64,000 nucleotides of DNA from IMG/VR virus record IMGVR_UViG_3300037722_000380, positions 27,379 to 91,378 of that record. One strand, given 5' to 3'. Under the pieces are notes generated by a model. That model ran no database searches. It was not told the DNA's origin and worked only from the letters and a program-made list of their open reading frames with translations. Position 1 is the first letter of the stretch. Every line of letters begins with the position of its first letter. This stretch comes from a virus. This document shows positions 15,715 through 50,713 of this stretch, one piece after another. A program made the translations under genes and the position numbers.

Positions 15715-15789
15715 TCCGAGATAGGCCAATGGTAGACCGCCGGGCTGTTAACCCGGATGCTCCTGGTTCGAGTCCAGGTCTCGGAGCCA
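15715..15789 (+). tRNA. tRNA-Asn(GTT)
   Basis: Acceptor TCCGAGA/TCTCGGA, arm CCGGG CT GTT AA CCCGG, CCA. Confidence 0.95.
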
Positions 15790-15792
15790 ATT

Positions 15793-15868
15793 ATAAGTGT
15801 AGCTCAACTGGTAGAGCAGCGGTCTCCAAAACCGCAGGTTGTGGGTTCGAGTCCTACCACTTATGCCA
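15793..15868 (+). tRNA. tRNA-Trp(CCA)
   Basis: ATAAGTG/CACTTAT, GCGGT CT CCA AA ACCGC, CCA. Confidence 0.95.
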
Positions 15869-15875
15869 ACACGAT

Positions 15876-15949
15876 AGCAGTGAGGATCGGTCATCCCATC
15901 CGGGCTCATAACTCGGACTGTGCAAGTTCGACTCTTGCCGCTGCTACCA
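15876..15949 (+). tRNA. tRNA-Met(CAT), initiator-like anticodon arm, atypical D arm
   Basis: AGCAGTG/CGCTGCT, CCGGG CT CAT AA CTCGG, CCA. Confidence 0.75.
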
Positions 15950-15950
15950 A

Positions 15951-16024
15951 CCACTGATAGCTCAATGGCAGAGCAAGCGGCCGATAACCGTTAGACCAAG
16001 GTTCGATTCCTTGTCGGTGGACCA
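15951..16024 (+). tRNA. tRNA-Ile(GAT)
   Basis: CCACTGA/TCGGTGG, AGCGG CC GAT AA CCGTT, CCA. Confidence 0.93.
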
Positions 16025-16030
16025 AAAGGA

Positions 16031-16088
16031 GGCGTGAAGGGACCACCCCCGAGGCTATAAAGTCAGGATGCGAACGCCCTGGCACGCC
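16031..16088 (+). other. Degenerate tRNA-like element
   Basis: Closing stem GGCGTG/CACGCC, T-arm-like CAGG..TGCGAAC..CCTG, no CCA. Confidence 0.3.
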
Positions 16089-16099
16089 GCGAAATTTAA

Positions 16100-16173
16100 C
16101 TGGATGTAGCGCAGCTTGGTAGCGTGCCTGCCTTGGAAGCAGGAAGTCGTGGGTTCGAGTCCCACCATCCAGA
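16100..16173 (+). tRNA. tRNA-Pro(TGG), no encoded CCA
   Basis: CTGGATG/CATCCAG, CCTGC CT TGG AA GCAGG; followed by endonuclease ORF. Confidence 0.92.
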
Positions 16174-16188
16174 CACACAGGAGAAACC

Positions 16189-16551
16189 ATGCGTTCTTGG
16201 CTAAAAGAGTGTAAGACCAAGAATATGCTGCCGACGCAAGCAGCATGGCTTGCAGGTTTCTTCGATGGCGAAGGCTCTCTGACTTTCTATATGGCGGGTC
16301 GAGATCGCCAATACAAAACATGGGTTCTGACACTTCCTAATACAAATTTGGAATCACTTAAAAAATGTCAAGAAATTACTGGGGTTGGATACGTTCGGCC
16401 AAAACCGGTGAAAGAAAATCGTCAACCCTGTTGGATGTGGACTGTTGCTACACAACGAGATATGATTTCAATCTGTAAACAGATGCTCCCGTATCTTATA
16501 ATCAAGAAAAAGAAGTGTGCTTTGTTTTTATCCGAATGGGTTGACGTTTAG
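16189..16551 (+). CDS. Single-motif LAGLIDADG homing endonuclease
   Basis: AAWLAGFFDGEGS motif, C-terminal LPYLIIKKK, AGGAG RBS. Confidence 0.88.
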   Translation: MRSWLKECKTKNMLPTQAAWLAGFFDGEGSLTFYMAGRDRQYKTWVLTLPNTNLESLKKCQEITGVGYVRPKPVKENRQPCWMWTVATQRDMISICKQMLPYLIIKKKKCALFLSEWVDV

Positions 16552-16560
16552 ACCAATAGA

Positions 16561-16638
16561 CTATCTGTAGCTCAGCATGGCTAGAGTGCTCCCCTCGGAC
16601 GGGAGAGGCCGCTGGTTCGAATCCAGCCAGATAGACCA
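16561..16638 (+). tRNA. tRNA-Pro(CGG)
   Basis: CTATCTG/CAGATAG, CTCCC CT CGG AC GGGAG, CCA. Confidence 0.93.
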
Positions 16639-16643
16639 ATAAT

Positions 16644-16720
16644 GGTGGTGCGAAGGAGCAGGTGAACCTCGCTGTCTGTGAAACAGTGGACGTTGGGATC
16701 GTTACCCAAGCATCACCCCA
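16644..16720 (+). tRNA. tRNA-His(GTG) with G-1:C73
   Basis: G-GTGGTGC/GCATCAC-C-CCA, GCTGT CT GTG AA ACAGT; T loop ATCGTTA. Confidence 0.88.
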
Positions 16721-16722
16721 AA

Positions 16723-16800
16723 CCGGCGGTCTTCTAATTGGACTAGGACACCTGACTTTCAATCAGGGTAATACGGGTTCGAATCCCGTCCGCCGGACCA
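16723..16800 (+). tRNA. tRNA-Glu(TTC)
   Basis: CCGGCGG/CCGCCGG, CCTGA CT TTC AA TCAGG, CCA. Confidence 0.95.
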
Positions 16801-16825
16801 AAATAGAACTTGACTTCGTATCGAA

Positions 16826-16901
16826 GGGCTGGTAGCTTAATTGGGAGAGCGGCTGCCTTGCAAGCAGTCAGATGGGGGTTCGAGTCCCCCTCGGTCCACC
16901 A
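16826..16901 (+). tRNA. tRNA-Ala(TGC)
   Basis: GGGCTGG/TCGGTCC with G3:U70, GCTGC CT TGC AA GCAGT, CCA. Confidence 0.95.
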
Positions 16902-17000
16902 GTTGTCAGAAGTAAAACGAGGCGTCAGTACACGCCTACCCACAGAACGCCACGGCGGGTTCGGCCGGTAATCAGTCTGAGGGGAACTTGTTGGGTTTGA

Positions 17001-17074
17001 CCCCCGTGTAGCTCAATCAGAGCATCCCCCGCAGAGGGGAAAGATGGTGGTTAGAGTCCACCCACGGGGTGCCA
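17001..17074 (+). tRNA. Non-canonical tRNA-like RNA (6-nt CGCAGA loop, Cys-like)
   Basis: CCCCGTG/CACGGGG, D arm GCTC/GAGC, stem TCCCC/GGGGA with 6-nt loop, T loop TTAGAGT, ends TGCCA. Confidence 0.55.
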
Positions 17075-17098
17075 ACAAGAAGGACAACGAAAAGATAT

Positions 17099-17173
17099 GC
17101 TCGGTTAGCTCAGCGGTAGAGCGGCTGGCTTACATCCAGCGGGTCGTGGGTTCGAATCCTACACCGAGTACCA
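17099..17173 (+). tRNA. tRNA-Val(TAC)
   Basis: GCTCGGT/ACCGAGT, GCTGG CT TAC AT CCAGC, CCA. Confidence 0.95.
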
Positions 17174-17178
17174 GTTTC

Positions 17179-17270
17179 GGGAGATGCCAGTAAGGGTGGG
17201 TGGTCCCACCGCTTGGCTGTAAACCAAGTCCCTTTGGGGCAAGAGGTTCAATTCCATCCATCTCCCACCA
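17179..17270 (+). tRNA. tRNA-Tyr(GTA)
   Basis: GGGAGAT/ATCTCCC, CTTGG CT GTA AA CCAAG, long V arm, extended D arm, imperfect T stem. Confidence 0.85.
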
Positions 17271-17276
17271 GACTAT

Positions 17277-17353
17277 CCGCGCGTAGCTCAATTGGACGAG
17301 CGCCTGACTACGAATCAGGTGGTATGCAGGTTCGAATCCTGTCGCGCGGTCCA
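17277..17353 (+). tRNA. tRNA-Arg(ACG)
   Basis: CCGCGCG/CGCGCGG, CCTGA CT ACG AA TCAGG, CCA. Confidence 0.95.
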
Positions 17354-17354
17354 A

Positions 17355-17430
17355 CGGCTTGTAGCTCAATTGGATGAGCACCCGGTTTCTACCCGGTATG
17401 ATGCAGGTTCGAGTCCTGTCAAGCCGACCA
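17355..17430 (+). tRNA. tRNA-Arg(TCT)
   Basis: CGGCTTG/CAAGCCG, loop TT TCT AC, CCA. Confidence 0.9.
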
Positions 17431-17437
17431 AATACAA

Positions 17438-17524
17438 GGATGGTTGACAGAGAGGTAATGTGCCGGTTTGCTAAACCGAGGCTACCGAAAGGTAACGGGG
17501 GTTCGATTCCTCCACCATCCGCCA
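17438..17524 (+). tRNA. tRNA-Ser(GCT)
   Basis: GGATGGT/ACCATCC, loop TT GCT AA, long V arm, G73, CCA. Confidence 0.93.
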
Positions 17525-17525
17525 A

Positions 17526-17680
17526 TCGGTTGCTCTAGCGAGACGGCTGAAACGCCGTGCAAGGAGAAGGAAGATAGGGGAAGGTCCGCTCTTCCCGCCG
17601 ACGAAATCGTTTCATTTTTGGTGAAATGATTGCACTCGTTTTGAAACGAATTGCAGTTTGTGGCCTGAAAATGAAACGAT
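17526..17680 (+). ncRNA. Candidate structured RNA inside tRNA array
   Basis: Perfect 13-bp stem ATCGTTTCATTTT (17606)/AAAATGAAACGAT (17668) with nested stems; upstream GGGAAG/CTTCCC hairpin. Confidence 0.4.
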
Positions 17681-17682
17681 AC

Positions 17683-17760
17683 CCGGCGGTCGTCTAAACG
17701 GAATAGGACTCCTGCCTCTCAAGCAGGATAATACGGGTTCGAATCCCGTCCGCCGGACCA
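17683..17760 (+). tRNA. tRNA-Glu(CTC)
   Basis: CCGGCGG/CCGCCGG, CCTGC CT CTC AA GCAGG; 3' portion identical to Glu(TTC). Confidence 0.95.
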
Positions 17761-17768
17761 AGTTTAAT

Positions 17769-17845
17769 GCGCTGTTAGGAGAGTGGCCGTCTCCGATGCC
17801 CTGTCACGGCATAGACCACGGGTTCGAATCCCGTACAGCGCGCCA
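17769..17845 (+). tRNA. tRNA-Asp(GTC)
   Basis: GCGCTGT/ACAGCGC, ATGCC CT GTC AC GGCAT, CCA. Confidence 0.95.
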
Positions 17846-17854
17846 ATACGTGAT

Positions 17855-17929
17855 GCCGAATTAGCACAGTGGAAGTGCAGCGGTTTTGTAAACCGAAGGT
17901 CGGGGGTTCGAATCCCTCATTTGGCTCCA
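17855..17929 (+). tRNA. tRNA-Thr(TGT)
   Basis: GCCGAAT/ATTTGGC, loop TT TGT AA, CCA. Confidence 0.92.
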
Positions 17930-17930
17930 T

Positions 17931-18006
17931 GCCAAGGTAGCTCAGTTGGTAGAGCATCCGTTTCGTAATCGGAAGGCCGTGGGTTCGACTCCCACCCGAG
18001 GCACCA
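17931..18006 (+). tRNA. tRNA-Thr(CGT)
   Basis: GCCAAGG/CCGAGGC (two mismatches), loop TT CGT AA, CCA. Confidence 0.85.
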
Positions 18007-18011
18007 ATAAC

Positions 18012-18086
18012 GGACTCGTGGCTTGACGGGGAAGCGCCGGACTCTTAATCCGCGATATGTGGGTTCGAATCCCACCGAGTCCTCCA
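18012..18086 (+). tRNA. tRNA-Lys(CTT)
   Basis: GGACTCG/CGAGTCC, loop CT CTT AA, CCA. Confidence 0.92.
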
Positions 18087-18087
18087 T

Positions 18088-18162
18088 TGCAGCGTAGCTC
18101 AAAGGTGGAGCCGACCGCTCATAACGGCCAGGGTGCGGGTTCGAGTCCCGCCGCTGCTACCA
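18088..18162 (+). tRNA. tRNA-Met or Ile2 (CAT)
   Basis: TGCAGCG/CGCTGCT with unpaired 1:72, loop CT CAT AA, CCA. Confidence 0.85.
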
Positions 18163-18167
18163 TAACG

Positions 18168-18250
18168 GGACCGATAGGCTAACGTTAGCTCGGTGCAACA
18201 GCGGGCTTTTAATCCGCCGCCAAGGGGTTCGACTCCTCATCGGTCCTCCA
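18168..18250 (+). tRNA. tRNA-Lys(TTT), extended D arm
   Basis: GGACCGA/TCGGTCC, GCGGG CT TTT AA TCCGC, CCA. Confidence 0.85.
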
Positions 18251-18321
18251 ACTTTCGCGTACCTGAAGTACGAAAAGGTTTGACAATGCGACGCTGGAAG
18301 CGTAAATTTGAGGCCGTGGAC

Positions 18322-18831
18322 ATGAAACTGGATTTTAACTACGAAGAGATTCGTGAGTACATTCGTAACAGCACGCAAGAGAGCGTGGTCATGATCGGTT
18401 GCGATTCTCTTCGGCGCGAAATACATGGTAAAGCATCCGCGTTATACTCAGCGGTGATCTGCGTTCGGCGCGCATCGGGAGAAGGCAGCAAGATTATGTA
18501 CCACGGCAGCAAGGTCTTCGGCGCTTCTGTTCGGCTCCCTGACTACGGCCGGGTTGTGAAGAGTGGAAAGCTTGCGAACTTGAAGACTCGGTTGATGCAA
18601 GAAGTGGCGTTTGCGTTGGAGGCTTTTGAGAACGTGCATGAGGCTATCGGTGATCGTCCATTCGAAATCCACTTGGATATCAATTCAAGTCCGGAATGGG
18701 AGAGCCATGTAGCAGTGCAAGATGCGCGGGGTTTTGTGCTCGGCATTAGCGGTAAGGAACCGGAATTCAAGCCTTACGCTTTGGCCGCAAGCTTCGCTGC
18801 CGATGCGCACGTTCGGGGACTTTTGAAGTAA
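18322..18831 (+). CDS. YkuK/DUF458 RNase H-like protein
   Basis: VMIGCDS..YSAVICV..LMQEV..EIHLDIN..PEFKPYALAASFAAD; GAGG RBS; embedded in tRNA array. Confidence 0.75.
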   Translation: MKLDFNYEEIREYIRNSTQESVVMIGCDSLRREIHGKASALYSAVICVRRASGEGSKIMYHGSKVFGASVRLPDYGRVVKSGKLANLKTRLMQEVAFALEAFENVHEAIGDRPFEIHLDINSSPEWESHVAVQDARGFVLGISGKEPEFKPYALAASFAADAHVRGLLK

Positions 18832-18832
18832 C

Positions 18833-18918
18833 GTCTGTATGGCGGAATGGTAGACGCGCTAGGTTGAGGGCCTAGTTCCCGAAAGGGAGTAGAGGTTCGA
18901 GTCCTCTTATAGACACCA
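18833..18918 (+). tRNA. tRNA-Leu(GAG)
   Basis: GTCTGTA/TATAGAC, CTAGG TT GAG GG CCTAG, long V arm, CCA. Confidence 0.93.
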
Positions 18919-18925
18919 GTTAGAT

Positions 18926-19002
18926 GCGAAGATGACGGGAATTGGCATACCTCGGAGGCTTAAACCCTCTGGTTTGTGGGTTCGACCCCCACTCTTCGCA
19001 CC
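18926..19002 (+). tRNA. tRNA-Leu(TAA), short V arm
   Basis: GCGAAGA/TCTTCGC, GGAGG CT TAA AC CCTCT, CCA. Confidence 0.88.
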
Positions 19003-19003
19003 A

Positions 19004-19080
19004 TGCTCCGATGATGCAATGGTAGACATGCTCGGCTTAGAACCGAGTTCTTGGGGGTTCGAGTCCCTCTCGGAGTACCA
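19004..19080 (+). tRNA. tRNA-Leu(TAG), short V arm
   Basis: GCTCCGA/TCGGAGT, CTCGG CT TAG AA CCGAG, CCA. Confidence 0.9.
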
Positions 19081-19085
19081 ATAGA

Positions 19086-19163
19086 GCAAGGATGACGGGA
19101 ATTGGTATACCTCGGAAGCTCAAACCTTCCGGCCTGTGGGTTCGAATCCCACTCCTTGTACCA
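19086..19163 (+). tRNA. tRNA-Leu(CAA), short V arm
   Basis: GCAAGGA/TCCTTGT, GGAAG CT CAA AC CTTCC, CCA. Confidence 0.9.
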
Positions 19164-19167
19164 ATAC

Positions 19168-19265
19168 GGATGGCTAAGCCGAAAGCTTGCTGGGTAGCGG
19201 CAGCGGTCTTGAAAACCGAGGGCTCCGAAAGGGGTGTGTGGGTTCGAATCCTACGCCATCCGCCA
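19168..19265 (+). tRNA. tRNA-Ser(TGA)
   Basis: GGATGGC/GCCATCC, loop CT TGA AA, long V arm, extended D arm, G73, CCA. Confidence 0.9.
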
Positions 19266-19273
19266 AATTAGAT

Positions 19274-19350
19274 GCTGCCGGTAGCTTAACTGGTAGAGCC
19301 TTTCCCTGGTAAGGAAGGAGATGAGGGTTCGACTCCCTCCCGCAGCACCA
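19274..19350 (+). tRNA. tRNA-Thr(GGT)
   Basis: GCTGC(C)GG/CCGCAGC with bulged C, loop CT GGT AA, CCA. Confidence 0.85.
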
Positions 19351-19351
19351 T

Positions 19352-19426
19352 CGGAAGTTAGCTCAGTGGTAGAGCGGTAGCCTGAAGAGCTACGCGTCGG
19401 GGGTTCGACTCCCTCACTTCCGGCCA
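19352..19426 (+). tRNA. tRNA-Phe(GAA)
   Basis: CGGAAGT/ACTTCCG, GTAGC CT GAA GA GCTAC, CCA. Confidence 0.93.
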
Positions 19427-19431
19427 CTCAT

Positions 19432-19506
19432 AGGCGGTTCGTTCAACGGCCAGGACCACTGACTTTGAATCAGTTAATCGGGGTTCGAATCCCTGACCGC
19501 CTTCCA
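19432..19506 (+). tRNA. tRNA-Gln(TTG)
   Basis: AGGCGGT/ACCGCCT, ACTGA CT TTG AA TCAGT, CCA. Confidence 0.93.
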
Positions 19507-19510
19507 TAAT

Positions 19511-19586
19511 AGCGAGTTAGCTCAGTAGGTAGAGCGTCTGGCTCTGAACCAGAAGGCCGGGGGTTCGAACCCCTCACTCGCCGCCA
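19511..19586 (+). tRNA. tRNA-Gln(CTG)
   Basis: AGCGAGT/ACTCGCC, TCTGG CT CTG AA CCAGA, G73, CCA. Confidence 0.92.
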
Positions 19587-19593
19587 TTTCATT

Positions 19594-19670
19594 CGGCCCG
19601 TAGCTCAAACGGACGAGCACCCGTTTCCTAAACGGAAGGAATGCAGGTTCGAATCCTGTCGGGCTGACCA
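19594..19670 (+). tRNA. tRNA-Arg(CCT)
   Basis: CGGCCCG/CGGGCTG, loop TT CCT AA, CCA. Confidence 0.92.
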
Positions 19671-19671
19671 A

Positions 19672-19747
19672 CGTCTCGTAGCTCAACTGGATGAGCGTCG
19701 CCCTCCGAAGGTGAAGGATGCAGGTTCGAGTCCTGTCGAGACGACCA
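19672..19747 (+). tRNA. tRNA-Arg(CCG)
   Basis: CGTCTCG/CGAGACG, TCGCC CT CCG AA GGTGA, CCA. Confidence 0.95.
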
Positions 19748-48854: not shown

Positions 48855-49124
48855 CTAAGGCTTGCACGCGATAGCCTCCGGACGGTCGATCACATTCGGG
48901 GAAGCTGATGCGGGTTCGGGCAGTTGATGAGCCCGATCTAGCACTACTGCATAATCGACGGTTACGACGTGTTGCACCTGTTGAACTTCGGGGTGCTGTA
49001 TCGTTTCGTGGATGAAGAACGGTTCGCAGGTGTGTAGCCGCCATCCCTCGCGACCAAGCTCATTGAGCAAGGCTTCAAGATCGGTGCCGGAAGCGTGGAG
49101 AACCTTGTACTCGAAAGTTACCAT
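48855..49124 (-). CDS. DUF4177-like small protein
   Basis: FEYKVL..LEALLNELGREGWRL. Confidence 0.6.
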   Translation of the reverse strand: MVTFEYKVLHASGTDLEALLNELGREGWRLHTCEPFFIHETIQHPEVQQVQHVVTVDYAVVLDRAHQLPEPASASPNVIDRPEAIACKP

Positions 49125-49132
49125 TTCGCAGC

Positions 49133-49161
49133 ACCATATCCCGTTTTGCCGTAAAAGTCAA
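49133..49161 (-). promoter_or_regulatory. GGCAA-type promoter just downstream of pentamer array
   Basis: TTGACT-tttac-GGCAA-aacggga-TATGGT. Confidence 0.6.
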
Positions 49162-49170
49162 TGTTTATAT

Positions 49171-49416
49171 AAACCATGCCACGCCGAGCCACGCCCCGCC
49201 CTGCCTTGCCTCGCCGGACCTTGCCTGCCACGCCATGCCTGCCCTGCCTCGCCCGACCATGCCTCGCCCGACCATGCCGCGCCCGGCCACACCTTGCCCC
49301 GCCTTGCCGAGCCGGACCCCGCCTGCCCTGCCGCGCCGAGCCTCACCCGACCATGCCTGCCCTGCCTCGCCCGACCAAGCCCGACCTTGCCGCGCCTTGC
49401 CGAGCCTCGCCACGCC
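49171..49416 (-). repeat. GGY-NN pentamer array (candidate guide RNA array, VIPR-like)
   Basis: 50 GGC/GGT triplets on minus strand, each followed by a variable dinucleotide (46) or a single A (4); starts 16 nt after the RAMP-like gene stop. Confidence 0.9.
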
Positions 49417-49432
49417 TCGTATCAAAAAAGAG

Positions 49433-50050
49433 TTACGCCGGAGTGGATGCCAGCCGGAACCGACCGTATTCACCACCCCTCTCCGGACGCCATTCACATA
49501 AACCGACTCCGAACCCAGCCCGGTTGATAAGATTTGCGATGTCATTGACTGTGAGCAAATCCGCGTCATATTCGAGGTCAAACGTGACGCTCCACTTGGG
49601 AAATTCCGGACGATAACGAAGATCGGTTGAACCCTGACCAACACGAACATAATCTTCGCGCATCACGGGCTTATCACAAATCATCGGAAGTACACCGTTA
49701 GCGTCGTCACAGGGAAGAAACAACGCCTTCCGAACCAGAGTCTTTTCGACACCCAAATCCTTGTGTGCGGCTCCAATTATCGCAGCTTTCAGAGCCAGGA
49801 CCGGAACTCCGTGCCGACCGTCTTCGGTACGATACATGGCCGATTCGAATTCGGCCTTGGGATCGCGGATATCCCGCTCTTTCGTCTTTCGTCCTGCGTG
49901 CTTAGCCCGCATCTGCTCCTTAGCCTTCTCAGCCCACTTATGCTGAATCAGGCTAGACCGGCTCTCGATTGTCAGCGTAAGCCGGTTCTCTTTAACCGCC
50001 GGGATACTTGCCTCAATGGCCTTCGTTTCGGCAACTTTCGCCTTCGCCAT
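49433..50050 (-). CDS. Stand-alone RAMP/Cas7-like protein (Vipr-like)
   Basis: LTLTIESRSSLIQH; HGVPVLALKAAII (cf. IPGSSLKGALR); thumb MREDYVRVGQGSTDLRYRPEF; G-loop RAGFGVGLCEWRPERGGEYGRF; AAGGAG RBS. Confidence 0.7.
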   Translation of the reverse strand: MAKAKVAETKAIEASIPAVKENRLTLTIESRSSLIQHKWAEKAKEQMRAKHAGRKTKERDIRDPKAEFESAMYRTEDGRHGVPVLALKAAIIGAAHKDLGVEKTLVRKALFLPCDDANGVLPMICDKPVMREDYVRVGQGSTDLRYRPEFPKWSVTFDLEYDADLLTVNDIANLINRAGFGVGLCEWRPERGGEYGRFRLASTPA

Positions 50051-50116
50051 ATTAATATCTCCTTTCAAGCGCGTGCAATTGAAATGGCTGCACGCATCGC
50101 CACAACAGAAGCTACG

Positions 50117-50650
50117 TTACCGTAACCGGTTCAACTCTTCATGGGCTTTAGTAATATGGTCATCCGCCGCCGCAACGACAGGGCGAACGGCTTTACTTGA
50201 AATAGACAAAAGTTCACGTACTGCAAGCTGAGCCCCGTTAAGCCGATGCTGAGCACTATCGAGAGCCCGTGCAAATTTATCCGAATCCTTTATCAGCGTC
50301 GCCGGGCTGGCATAGGTTCCGGACGAGCCGTATTTATGGTTCTTTGGAGGAACATGAACGAAGCCTTTGATCGTCTCATTCTTCGGTTGATGCGGTGTCA
50401 TTTTCACCACGACCCGGATAGAACCGATCAAATACCGCGCTTGGTCTAGCCGATGCGCCCGAGCCGCCGCAGTATCGTCCCACGTAAAGGCCAAGTGCAT
50501 CGGCGACTTCGGATCAGAAGCTTCTTTAACGACATTTTCTGCGGTCAAAGCCTGCTTTTGTTCCAGTTGATCAAGAACCGGTCCGACCTTATTCGGGTCT
50601 ACTGCCTTTGGAAGCCGAGTTCCTTCCCGAAATTCATAGCGACGCGTCAT
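50117..50650 (-). CDS. Accessory protein co-transcribed with RAMP-like gene
   Basis: LTAENVVKEASDPKSPMHLAFTWDDTAAARAHRLDQARYLIGSIRVV; GGAGG RBS. Confidence 0.65.
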   Translation of the reverse strand: MTRRYEFREGTRLPKAVDPNKVGPVLDQLEQKQALTAENVVKEASDPKSPMHLAFTWDDTAAARAHRLDQARYLIGSIRVVVKMTPHQPKNETIKGFVHVPPKNHKYGSSGTYASPATLIKDSDKFARALDSAQHRLNGAQLAVRELLSISSKAVRPVVAAADDHITKAHEELNRLR

Positions 50651-50683
50651 TCGTACCTCCATCTTTGAATCAAGTTAGGCTGA

Positions 50684-50713
50684 TTGGTAGCATATGTTGC
50701 CCACGTAGTCAAG
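50684..50713 (-). promoter_or_regulatory. GGCAA-type promoter of RAMP-like operon
   Basis: CTTGACT-acgtg-GGCAA-catatgc-TACCAA. Confidence 0.65.

What the first reader, a model, noticed from the sequence alone, without database searches (positions are those of the whole stretch)
49171..50713. Candidate RNA-guided system: stand-alone RAMP/Cas7-like gene followed by a GGY-NN pentamer array (VIPR-like)
Seen: on the minus strand, a promoter (50684-50713), a ~177-aa gene, a 205-aa gene and, 16 nt after its stop, a non-coding 246-nt array of 50 invariant GGC/GGT triplets spaced by variable dinucleotides. The 205-aa protein has RAMP/Cas7-like landmarks: beta1 LTLTIESRSSLIQH, GVPVLALKAAII (cf. IPGSSLKGALR), a thumb-like hairpin MREDYVRVGQGSTDLRYRPEF and a C-terminal Gly loop GFGVGLCEWRPERGGEYGRF. 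Established: Cas7-family RAMPs polymerise on RNA with fixed nucleotide periodicity. Inference: each protomer grips a GGY and presents the NN, so the array is a guide with a discontinuous code. No cas1/cas2, nuclease or CRISPR repeat lies nearby, which points to a phage-encoded repression or anti-competitor tool. From memory this architecture matches the recently described VIPR-type systems; that match should be checked rather than assumed.
Basis: partly seen in the sequence, partly recalled or inferred. Interest (0 to 1): 0.95.

Follow-up and report, generated by a model that had tools for sequence, protein, structure and literature searches.

The report
Phage VIPR guide-RNA system
This uncultivated 93-kb phage carries a complete VIPR system (a small Cas7-like protein, an accessory gene and a 246-base array of five-base GGY-NN repeats that encode gapped guide RNAs); the system was first described in 2026 preprints, so this is a well-supported new example of a known kind whose targets remain unknown.

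Summary
On the minus strand, 49416-49171 carries 50 in-register GGY triplets: 46 five-base units and four 4-base GGCA units. It is the only such tract in the 93-kb phage genome; shuffles give 3-4 units at most.

The 205-aa protein is a Vipr.
- Its family profile hits the solved SUSP1 Vipr (E 7e-11; hhalign 97.9%).
- The model is a Cas7/Csm3-like RAMP.
- Its five best AlphaFold-DB matches are the five founding Vipr entries of the discovery preprint.
- The GGY-binding residues of SUSP1 Vipr are conserved.

In 92 of 103 homologue loci, GGY-NN tracts lie beside vipr: 393 on its strand, 1 on the other. Close relatives keep GGY but have different NN.

The 177-aa gene is a conserved neighbour (69 of 103 loci) but is unrelated to SUSP1 vap1.

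The array has no 3' tail. Conserved GGCA units punctuate it, as in the "staggered arrays" the preprint mentions.

No target was found for any guide, and no RNA data exist.

Verdict: a new member of a known kind (VIPR). This scan has already noted VIPR systems in at least 24 other genomes.

The parts
50684..50713 (-). Promoter-like site in front of the operon (TTGACT-N5-GGCAA-N7-TACCAAT), one of a phage-specific motif class.
   Evidence: Sequence. TTGAC-N6-GGCAA occurs 8 times in the window against 0.21 expected; one copy is at 50712-50697. The generic sigma-70 scan did not return it. Its function is inferred.
50117..50650 (-). vap-like accessory gene, 177 aa. It has an N-terminal alpha/beta domain and a C-terminal helical hairpin. 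It belongs to a viral family with no annotated function.
   Evidence: phrog_15946, E 9e-19, no Pfam match. A homologue lies on the vipr strand beside vipr in 69 of 103 loci. AF2 model pLDDT 93.9. Only uncharacterised or viral matches were found. It is not related to SUSP1 vap1.
50110..50127 (-). Small hairpin (GGTTACGGTAACG...) over the vap stop codon, in the vap-vipr spacer.
   Evidence: Terminator-like scan. Its function was not tested.
49433..50050 (-). vipr gene, 205 aa: a stand-alone Cas7-like RAMP. Candidate GGY-binding residues are H37, R147, E186, W187 and R188. G100 and K103 match the SUSP1 non-target-strand clamp.
   Evidence: phrog_4652, E 1.6e-33. PDB 36pp_D 'SUSP1 Vipr protein': E 2.3e-5 with the single sequence, 7.2e-11 with the profile. 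hhalign 97.9%, E 5e-13, 166 columns. AF2 pLDDT 85.7. Foldseek top hits are Csm3/Cas7. VIA-align Z 9.4, with the top 21 all CRISPR RAMPs. The top five AFDB clusters are the five founding Vipr entries.
49171..49416 (-). vrRNA array: 50 GGY units, tail-less, punctuated by four GGCA units.
   Evidence: It has the same architecture as the arrays of relatives.
49362..49416 (-). Guide segment 1, 11 units. NN = GT GA TC AA GC AA CG TT CG GA AG.
   Evidence: Parsed at the GGCA marks.
49328..49357 (-). Guide segment 2, 6 units. NN = AT CG GA TC GC AG. It is flanked by GGCA marks at 49358-49361 and 49324-49327.
49244..49323 (-). Guide segment 3, 16 units. NN = GG CC TC AA GG AA GT CG GC AT CG GA AT CG GA AG. 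It contains an internal duplicated AT-CG-GA block.
49230..49239 (-). Short 2-unit segment (AT GT) between the GGCA marks at 49240-49243 and 49226-49229.
   Evidence: Segments of 1-3 units between marks are common in the clade.
49171..49225 (-). Guide segment 5, 11 units. NN = AA CC GA AA AG GG GT TC GT AT TT. It ends in GGCAT-GGTTT, the ending typical of the clade.
49133..49161 (-). Promoter-like site of the next gene (48855-49124, DUF4177-like). It marks the downstream limit of the VIPR unit.

Best explanation
The stretch 50713-49171 (minus strand) is one phage transcription unit that encodes a VIPR (Viral Interference Programmable Repeat) system. Its parts are a promoter, an accessory gene (vap-like, 177 aa), vipr (a 205-aa stand-alone Cas7-like RAMP) and a 246-nt vrRNA array.

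By homology with the solved SUSP1 system, the proposed mechanism is as follows.
- Vipr protomers polymerise on the transcript, one per pentamer.
- Each GGY is flipped out and held by H37 and E186 (first G), R147 and W187 (second G), and R188 (Y).
- The NN dinucleotides are presented for base pairing.
- The filament then binds double-stranded DNA that reads NN-x-NN-x... (one base skipped per unit) and blocks transcription there.

The array has no 3' tail. Conserved 4-nt GGCA units break the 5-nt register and divide it into segments of 11, 6, 16, 2 and 11 units. The three long segments are the likely guides.

Shown here: the anatomy, the homology, the fold, the conserved contact residues, and the co-occurrence of gene and array. 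Inferred: expression, processing at GGCA, DNA as the target, and the biological role, which is probably silencing of a competing mobile element or phage, as published for other VIPRs.
For: Array:
- It is unique in the genome and far beyond chance.

Protein:
- Sequence and profile hits to the solved SUSP1 Vipr.
- RAMP fold, pLDDT 85.7, with Csm3/Cas7 as the top matches in two independent structure searches.
- The AFDB top five are A0A0F9A1L0, X1U2U4, A0A661D0E2, A0A2D6XG06 and A0A1F4YLN4. These are exactly the five entries the discovery paper names as the first Viprs.
- The SUSP1 contact residues H17, R138, D177, W178 and R179 align with H37, R147, E186, W187 and R188. All are invariant or at least 90% conserved in 30 homologues.

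Co-occurrence:
- 92 of 103 homologue loci carry tracts of 6 or more units; 393 lie on the vipr strand and 1 on the other.
- The closest relatives (76% and 69% identical Vipr, same vap-vipr-array order) keep GGY and GGCA but have unrelated NN.
- A vap homologue lies beside vipr in 69 of 103 loci.

Context:
- Virus record; no cas1, no Pfam RAMP match, no CRISPR repeat.
- No self-target under the 1-nt-skip rule, as the paper reports for other VIPRs.
- Promoter-class motifs bracket the unit.
Against: - No RNA data exist for this phage, so transcription and processing of the array are not shown.
- No target was found. There were no exact NN-x matches for the full guides or sub-guides in IMG/VR, and none for two of these patterns in the JGI metagenomes.
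- There was no excess of skip-1 matches over the skip-0/2/3 controls in the genome or in 104 related loci. The 1-nt-skip rule is therefore untested for this clade.
- The array lacks the invariable 3' tail/pseudoknot of the characterised type II vrRNAs.
- The accessory protein is unrelated to vap1 and has no assignable fold.
- Two of the five segments (6 and 2 units) are shorter than any characterised guide.
Confidence: 0.9

Rival explanations
1. It is a Vipr-family RNP, but in this clade it has a different target or role. The clade has tail-less punctuated arrays and a different accessory gene. The RNP might bind RNA, or regulate the phage's own or the host's genes under another pairing rule, rather than silence a competitor's DNA by the 1-nt-skip rule.
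For: No target was found under the published rule. The accessory protein is unrelated to vap1. The cryo-EM preprint shows that Vipr filaments can also pair with ssRNA, although less completely.
Against: The residues that hold GGY are conserved, and so are G100 and K103, which align with the G87/K88 non-target-strand clamp of SUSP1. This argues for the same DNA-binding geometry. The missing target is weak evidence, because the host and its mobile elements are unknown and only exact matches could be searched in the large collections.
Confidence: 0.07
2. The tract is an unstable G-rich microsatellite or a decaying remnant with no function. Its nearness to the RAMP-like gene would then reflect shared ancestry only.
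For: There are internal duplications (GGCAT-GGTCG-GGCGA three times; GGCGA-GGCAG-GGCA-GGCAT twice). One low-depth contig in another sample carries a 65-nt 'goes back' joint inside the array.
Against: All 50 GGY are intact while 11 different NN occur. The array is identical in an independent soil metagenome. The strand bias across the family is 393 to 1, and GGCA punctuation is conserved even in arrays made of GGT units. A drifting microsatellite would not keep any of these features.
Confidence: 0.02
3. The tract is translated as a low-complexity Gly/Ala/Arg-rich protein. ORFs of 161 aa (minus strand) and 146-171 aa (plus strand) run across it.
For: Open frames exist on both strands.
Against: The conserved period is 5 nt, not 3, and the 4-nt GGCA units shift any frame. 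The minus-strand ORF starts inside vipr in another frame. Relatives' arrays range from 6 to 144 units with unrelated NN. The constraint is on GGY at the nucleotide level and on one strand only.
Confidence: 0.01

Closest known systems
VIPR systems (Vipr + vrRNA + vap): bioRxiv 10.64898/2026.04.26.720920, 10.64898/2026.04.26.720927 and 10.64898/2026.10.15.759431. The characterised exemplar is type II of Escherichia phage SUSP1 (PDB 36pp).
   Same: - A stand-alone protein of about 200 aa with a RAMP fold (RRM core, thumb, G-loop).
- Conserved GGY-contact residues.
- GGY/NN pentamer RNA array on the same strand, right beside the gene.
- A two-gene operon with an accessory gene.
- Encoded by a phage, with no cas genes and no CRISPR array.
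- NN hypervariable between relatives.
- No self-target.
   Different: - Only about 25% identity to SUSP1 Vipr over 166 columns.
- D177 is replaced by E186.
- The accessory gene is unrelated to vap1 and lies upstream of vipr. In SUSP1, and in 66 of 69 relatives with a detectable homologue, it lies downstream.
- There are no separate vrRNAs of about 100 nt, each with an invariable 3' tail/pseudoknot. Instead there is one continuous 50-unit tract cut by 4-nt GGCA units.
- The VIPR type (I-VII) could not be assigned, because the paper's tables and figures are not held.
'Staggered vrRNA arrays' of some VIPR types (Fig. S18 legend of 10.64898/2026.04.26.720920).
   Same: The legend describes individual vrRNAs that derive from positions overlapping by 1 nt within one continuous array, so that the end of one marks the start of the next. 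The GGCA units here fit this: the 5-nt register slips by one base at each segment border.
   Different: Only the legend could be read. It could not be checked whether the published examples use GGCA, whether they show the bimodal segment lengths seen in this clade (1-3 and 8-12 units), or whether they end in GGCAT-GGTTT.
Cas7-family backbone subunits of class 1 CRISPR-Cas effectors (Csm3, Cmr4, Csf2, Cas7).
   Same: Same fold and the same way of binding RNA: one protomer per fixed repeat length, with a thumb that flips bases. These are the best solved-structure matches (Z 9.4 for 9g9a_D; Foldseek E 2.9e-5 for 9ash_F).
   Different: Sequence identity is about 10-13%, and there is no Pfam RAMP match. 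The periodicity is 5 nt with three bases sequestered, against 6 nt with one base flipped. There is no crRNA repeat handle and no Cas5, Cas6, Cas10, Cas1 or Cas2. The guide is noncontiguous.

Membership tests
VIPR system | Vipr protein with a RAMP fold: RRM core, thumb hairpin and glycine-rich loop. | tested here: met
   AF2 model pLDDT 85.7, with beta1 at 21-30/34-36, helix-1 at 84-94, a hairpin at 129-150 and a Gly loop at 179-197. Foldseek PDB top hits are Csm3/Cas7, E 2.9e-5. VIA-align top 21 are all CRISPR RAMPs, Z up to 9.4.
VIPR system | Homology to established Vipr proteins. | tested here: met
   PDB 36pp_D 'SUSP1 Vipr protein': E 2.3e-5 (single sequence) and 7.2e-11 (profile). hhalign against phiSUSP1 ALH47069: probability 97.9%, E 5.2e-13. 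AFDB ranks 1-5 are the paper's five founding Vipr accessions.
VIPR system | Residues that recognise GGY (SUSP1 H17, R138, D177, W178, R179). | tested here: met
   They align with H37, R147, E186 (a conservative D to E change), W187 and R188, which are invariant or at least 90% conserved in alignment A1. This is by alignment only, not by a complex structure.
VIPR system | Adjacent same-strand tandem YNNGG (GGY/NN) repeats, at least 4 units. | tested here: met
   50 units starting 16 nt after the vipr stop. It is the only such tract in 93 kb; shuffles give at most 4 units.
VIPR system | GGY conserved and NN hypervariable among related systems. | tested here: met
   Across about 4,800 units in 103 loci, GGY is kept and all 16 NN occur. 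Relatives with 76% and 69% identical Vipr have unrelated NN.
VIPR system | Minimal locus with a vipr-accessory (vap) gene, and no cas genes or CRISPR array. | tested here: met
   A homologue of the 177-aa gene lies beside vipr on the same strand in 69 of 103 loci. No Cas1, Pfam RAMP match or CRISPR-like repeat was found. Which of vap1-6 it is could not be determined; it is not vap1.
VIPR system | vrRNA is expressed and co-purifies with Vipr. | not testable with these tools
   All 7 listed sequencing runs that hold the locus are metagenomic DNA; none is on record as RNA.
VIPR system | Guides match natural DNA targets by the 1-nt-skip (xNN) rule. | tested here: inconclusive
   There were no exact matches in IMG/VR or the JGI metagenomes. 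There was no skip-1 excess in the genome or in related loci. The host and co-resident elements are unknown, and mismatch-tolerant searches of large collections were not possible.
VIPR type II (SUSP1 / P. fulva clade) | Discrete vrRNAs of 9-16 repeats, each followed by an invariable structured 3' tail, with vap1 as the accessory gene. | tested here: not met
   The tract is continuous and has no tail, and Rfam returned no match at E up to 1. For contrast, SUSP1 tracts are followed by a non-repeat tail. The accessory gene is unrelated to vap1, hhalign probability 0.1%.
CRISPR-Cas class 1 (type III/IV Cas7) | Cas7 encoded with other cas genes and a CRISPR repeat-spacer array. | tested here: not met
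   No Cas1 or Pfam RAMP match in the genome. No CRISPR-like repeats. The resemblance is at fold level only.

The most novel reading that the evidence does not exclude
In this large environmental Vipr clade, the conserved 4-nt GGCA unit may be a self-contained punctuation mark. By shortening one repeat by a base, it would break the Vipr filament register. A single tail-less transcript would then be parsed into separate guides, and into 1-3-unit 'spacer' modules, without a ribozyme, a structured tail or a dedicated nuclease. If so, guide boundaries are set by filament assembly itself, and the clade's own accessory protein (unrelated to vap1) may act at these marks.
Probability: 0.3. Interest if true: 0.55.

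Novelty: new member of a known kind. Interest (0 to 1): 0.4.

Why it matters
VIPR is a newly described RNA-guided DNA-recognition system with a noncontiguous code, proposed to be older than CRISPR. This locus adds an intact example from an uncultivated sediment/soil phage of 93 kb.

- It shows that the GGY-contact residues of the solved E. coli phage protein persist at about 25% identity.
- It documents a large environmental clade: 883 proteins at E ≤ 0.001 among the candidates scored, and more than 100 loci examined.
- In that clade the arrays are tail-less and punctuated by a conserved GGCA unit, and the accessory gene differs from vap1.

This is useful for classifying VIPR types, for choosing compact systems to test, and for asking how guides are delimited without a tail. 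It does not change what is known about the mechanism, and this scan had already met VIPR systems in at least 24 other genomes.

Tried and rejected
Target hunting found nothing.
- Exact NN-x patterns for guides 1, 3 and 5, and for three shortened versions, gave no hits in IMG/VR.
- Guide 3 (units 1-12) and guide 1 gave no hits in the JGI metagenomes.
- Scored scans of the phage's own genome gave best matches of 63-77%, no better than the skip-0/2/3 controls.
- Scans of 188 relatives' guides against this genome, and of 148 guides (145 from relatives plus this phage's three) against all fetched loci, showed no skip-1 excess.
- I decoded the guides by hand as NNx codons, a lead taken from earlier scan notes. 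No motif I recognised emerged, and no tool could search such short degenerate peptides.

Other dead ends:
- Host: the genome search does not draw relatives for a virus record. The nearest cultured-phage proteins are only 35-41% identical (Achromobacter, Janthinobacterium and Pseudomonas phages), so the host stays unknown.
- Expression: no RNA runs exist. Laying contigs showed only that an identical array occurs in a second study.
- vap function: no Pfam match. Foldseek PDB gave nothing below E 0.38. VIA-align matched only the C-terminal helical hairpin. AFDB and the Atlas gave only uncharacterised, mostly viral clusters, plus a weak resemblance (TM 0.35-0.38) of residues 1-121 to winged-helix Rep domains. 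That is too weak to call.
- Rfam (hammerhead and others): no hit at E up to 1.
- The RNA fold of the array (z -2.8) was not considered informative.
- VIPR type I-VII: not assignable, because the supplementary tables and figures are not held.
- Complex prediction was not used. No protein-protein binding is claimed.
Full report
**Observation.**
On the minus strand, the 205-aa ORF (49433-50050) ends 16 nt before a tract that runs from 49416 to 49171. Parsing shows 50 GGY triplets in one register, with 45 spacings of 5 nt and four of 4 nt. The four short units are all GGCA. They divide the tract into segments of 11, 6, 16, 2 and 11 pentamers.

This is the only chain of 6 or more units on either strand of the window, and the only chain of 5 or more in the whole genome. 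Twenty shuffles of the genome never exceeded 4 units. The window lies in a single 93,022-bp virus record with a CheckV completeness of 88%. It carries tail genes, 30 tRNA genes, DNA polymerase A, a primase-helicase and an SNF2 helicase.

**What VIPR is.**
Preprint 10.64898/2026.04.26.720920 describes Viral Interference Programmable Repeat systems. These consist of a stand-alone ancestral RAMP (Vipr), usually one accessory gene (vap), and vrRNAs made of 9-16 YNNGG repeats. GGY is constant, and the NN pair with double-stranded DNA with one target base skipped per unit. The systems are mostly encoded by phages and silence competing elements.

Preprint 10.64898/2026.04.26.720927 gives cryo-EM structures.
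- There is one protomer per repeat.
- The first G is read by H17 and D177.
- The second G is read by R138 (thumb) and W178.
- Y sits in a pocket that includes R179.

**The protein.**
Pfam finds nothing. PHROGs places the protein in phrog_4652, of unknown function. Several tests identify it as a Vipr.
- Against PDB sequences, the protein alone hits 36pp_D 'SUSP1 Vipr protein' at E 2.3e-5. A profile of 30 homologues hits it at 7.2e-11.
- Against the phiSUSP1 gene product fetched from GenBank, hhalign gives 97.9% probability and E 5.2e-13 over 166 columns, almost full length.
- In that alignment, SUSP1 H17, R138, D177, W178 and R179 correspond to H37, R147, E186, W187 and R188. G87 and K88 of the non-target-strand clamp correspond to G100 and K103. 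All are invariant or at least 90% conserved in the family alignment.
- The AlphaFold2 model (pLDDT 85.7) has the RRM strands, helix-1, a beta-hairpin 'thumb' at 129-150 and a flexible Gly-rich loop at 179-197.
- Foldseek against the PDB returns Csm3/Cas7 subunits at the top, including 6ifn_E, the very chain the discoverers used as their query. An independent all-against-all aligner returns CRISPR RAMPs for its first 21 entries, Z up to 9.4.
- Against AlphaFold-DB clusters, the first five hits are A0A0F9A1L0, X1U2U4, A0A661D0E2, A0A2D6XG06 and A0A1F4YLN4. These are the five accessions the discovery paper lists as its original Vipr hits. CRISPR Cmr6/Csm3 follow only after them.

**Gene and array travel together.**
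I fetched 80 IMG/VR loci and 23 loci from GTDB genomes that encode homologues.
- 92 of the 103 loci carry at least one GGY chain of 6 or more units.
- There are 393 tracts on the vipr strand and one on the other.
- Tracts lie immediately downstream of vipr, after the next small gene, or just upstream of vipr.
- Among irregular units, GGCA accounts for 469 of about 540. It is used even in arrays whose ordinary units are GGT-NN.
- Segments between GGCA marks are bimodal, 1-3 or 8-12 units.
- Many arrays start with GGCA and end with GGCAT-GGTTT, as the window's array does.

The three closest loci found (Vipr 76% and 69% identical) have the same vap-vipr-array order, but their arrays are 530-710 nt long with unrelated NN. 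This is the 'conserved GGY, hypervariable NN' signature.

The legend of Fig. S18 of the first preprint describes 'staggered' arrays, in which neighbouring vrRNAs overlap by 1 nt and the end of one marks the start of the next. The GGCA units fit that description. By contrast, SUSP1 tracts are followed by a non-repeat tail, and the window's array has none.

**The accessory gene.**
Homologues of the 177-aa protein lie beside vipr on the same strand in 69 of 103 loci, downstream in 66 of them. The upstream position seen here is shared with the closest relatives and with L001. The protein is unrelated to SUSP1 vap1 (hhalign probability 0.1%). Its model is confident (pLDDT 93.9), but it matches only uncharacterised, mostly viral proteins. 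The resemblance of residues 1-121 to winged-helix Rep domains is too weak to use.

**Transcription unit.**
TTGAC-N6-GGCAA occurs eight times in the window against 0.21 expected. One copy lies just upstream of the accessory gene (50712-50697). Another lies right after the array (49161-49146), in front of the next gene. There is no room for a promoter in the 16 nt between vipr and the array. The array is therefore most likely co-transcribed with the two genes. This is an inference.

**What could not be shown.**
- No RNA data exist. The locus occurs only in sediment and soil metagenomic DNA. An identical array is found in an independent study.
- No target was found by exact NN-x patterns in IMG/VR or the JGI metagenomes, and scored scans of the genome and the related loci showed none either. 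The absence of self-targets agrees with the preprint.
- The host is unknown.
- The VIPR type cannot be assigned without the preprint's tables.

**Verdict.**
This is a VIPR system of a non-type-II kind, with a tail-less array punctuated by GGCA. It is a new member of a known, very recently described kind. Earlier notes of this scan report VIPR systems in at least 24 other genomes, including one with a 'punctuated' array.

Noticed in passing
window 19753, 30952, 33350, 41211, 42175, 49161, 50712, 56756 (motif starts): TTGAC-N6-GGCAA occurs 8 times against 0.21 expected by shuffling. This looks like a phage-specific promoter class with a fixed GGCAA in the spacer. Two copies bracket the VIPR unit.
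   Followed up: partly
loci L001-L103 (relatives' arrays): Across the clade, segment lengths between GGCA marks are bimodal: 1-3 units or 8-12 units. The NN just before a mark is biased towards AT, TT and GT. The short modules may be part of the punctuation rather than guides.
   Followed up: partly
L070:4728-8566; L007:4657-7319: Some relatives carry very large arrays. L070 has about 3.8 kb of GGY-NN tracts (48 chains). L007 has three arrays of 144, 54 and 132 units, and its first two arrays are followed by near-identical flanking sequence.
   Followed up: no
L032, L040, L047, L049, L052, L053, L055, L056, L058 (and the short-flank loci L075, L084): These eleven vipr-homologue loci show no canonical GGY chain of 6 or more units. 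They may use degenerate or alternative repeat units, as the literature reports for some VIPRs.
   Followed up: no
window 49297-49361: One low-depth contig from a third metagenome (X3) has a joint that 'goes back 65' nt (13 units) inside the array. This may be an array-length variant or an assembly artefact of the repeat.
   Followed up: no
window 15715-19747: A cluster of 30 tRNA genes lies on the plus strand, including one odd call with a 2-nt anticodon at 17002-17070.
   Followed up: no
window 48855-49124 (-): The gene just downstream of the array encodes an 89-aa protein with a sub-threshold DUF4177 match (E 6.6e-5, 23.5 bits against a cut-off of 25). It has its own promoter-like site and is probably not part of the VIPR unit.
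   Followed up: no
window 50110-50127 (-): A 7-bp hairpin overlaps the stop codon of the accessory gene in the 66-nt spacer before vipr. It could be an attenuator or a processing site.
   Followed up: no
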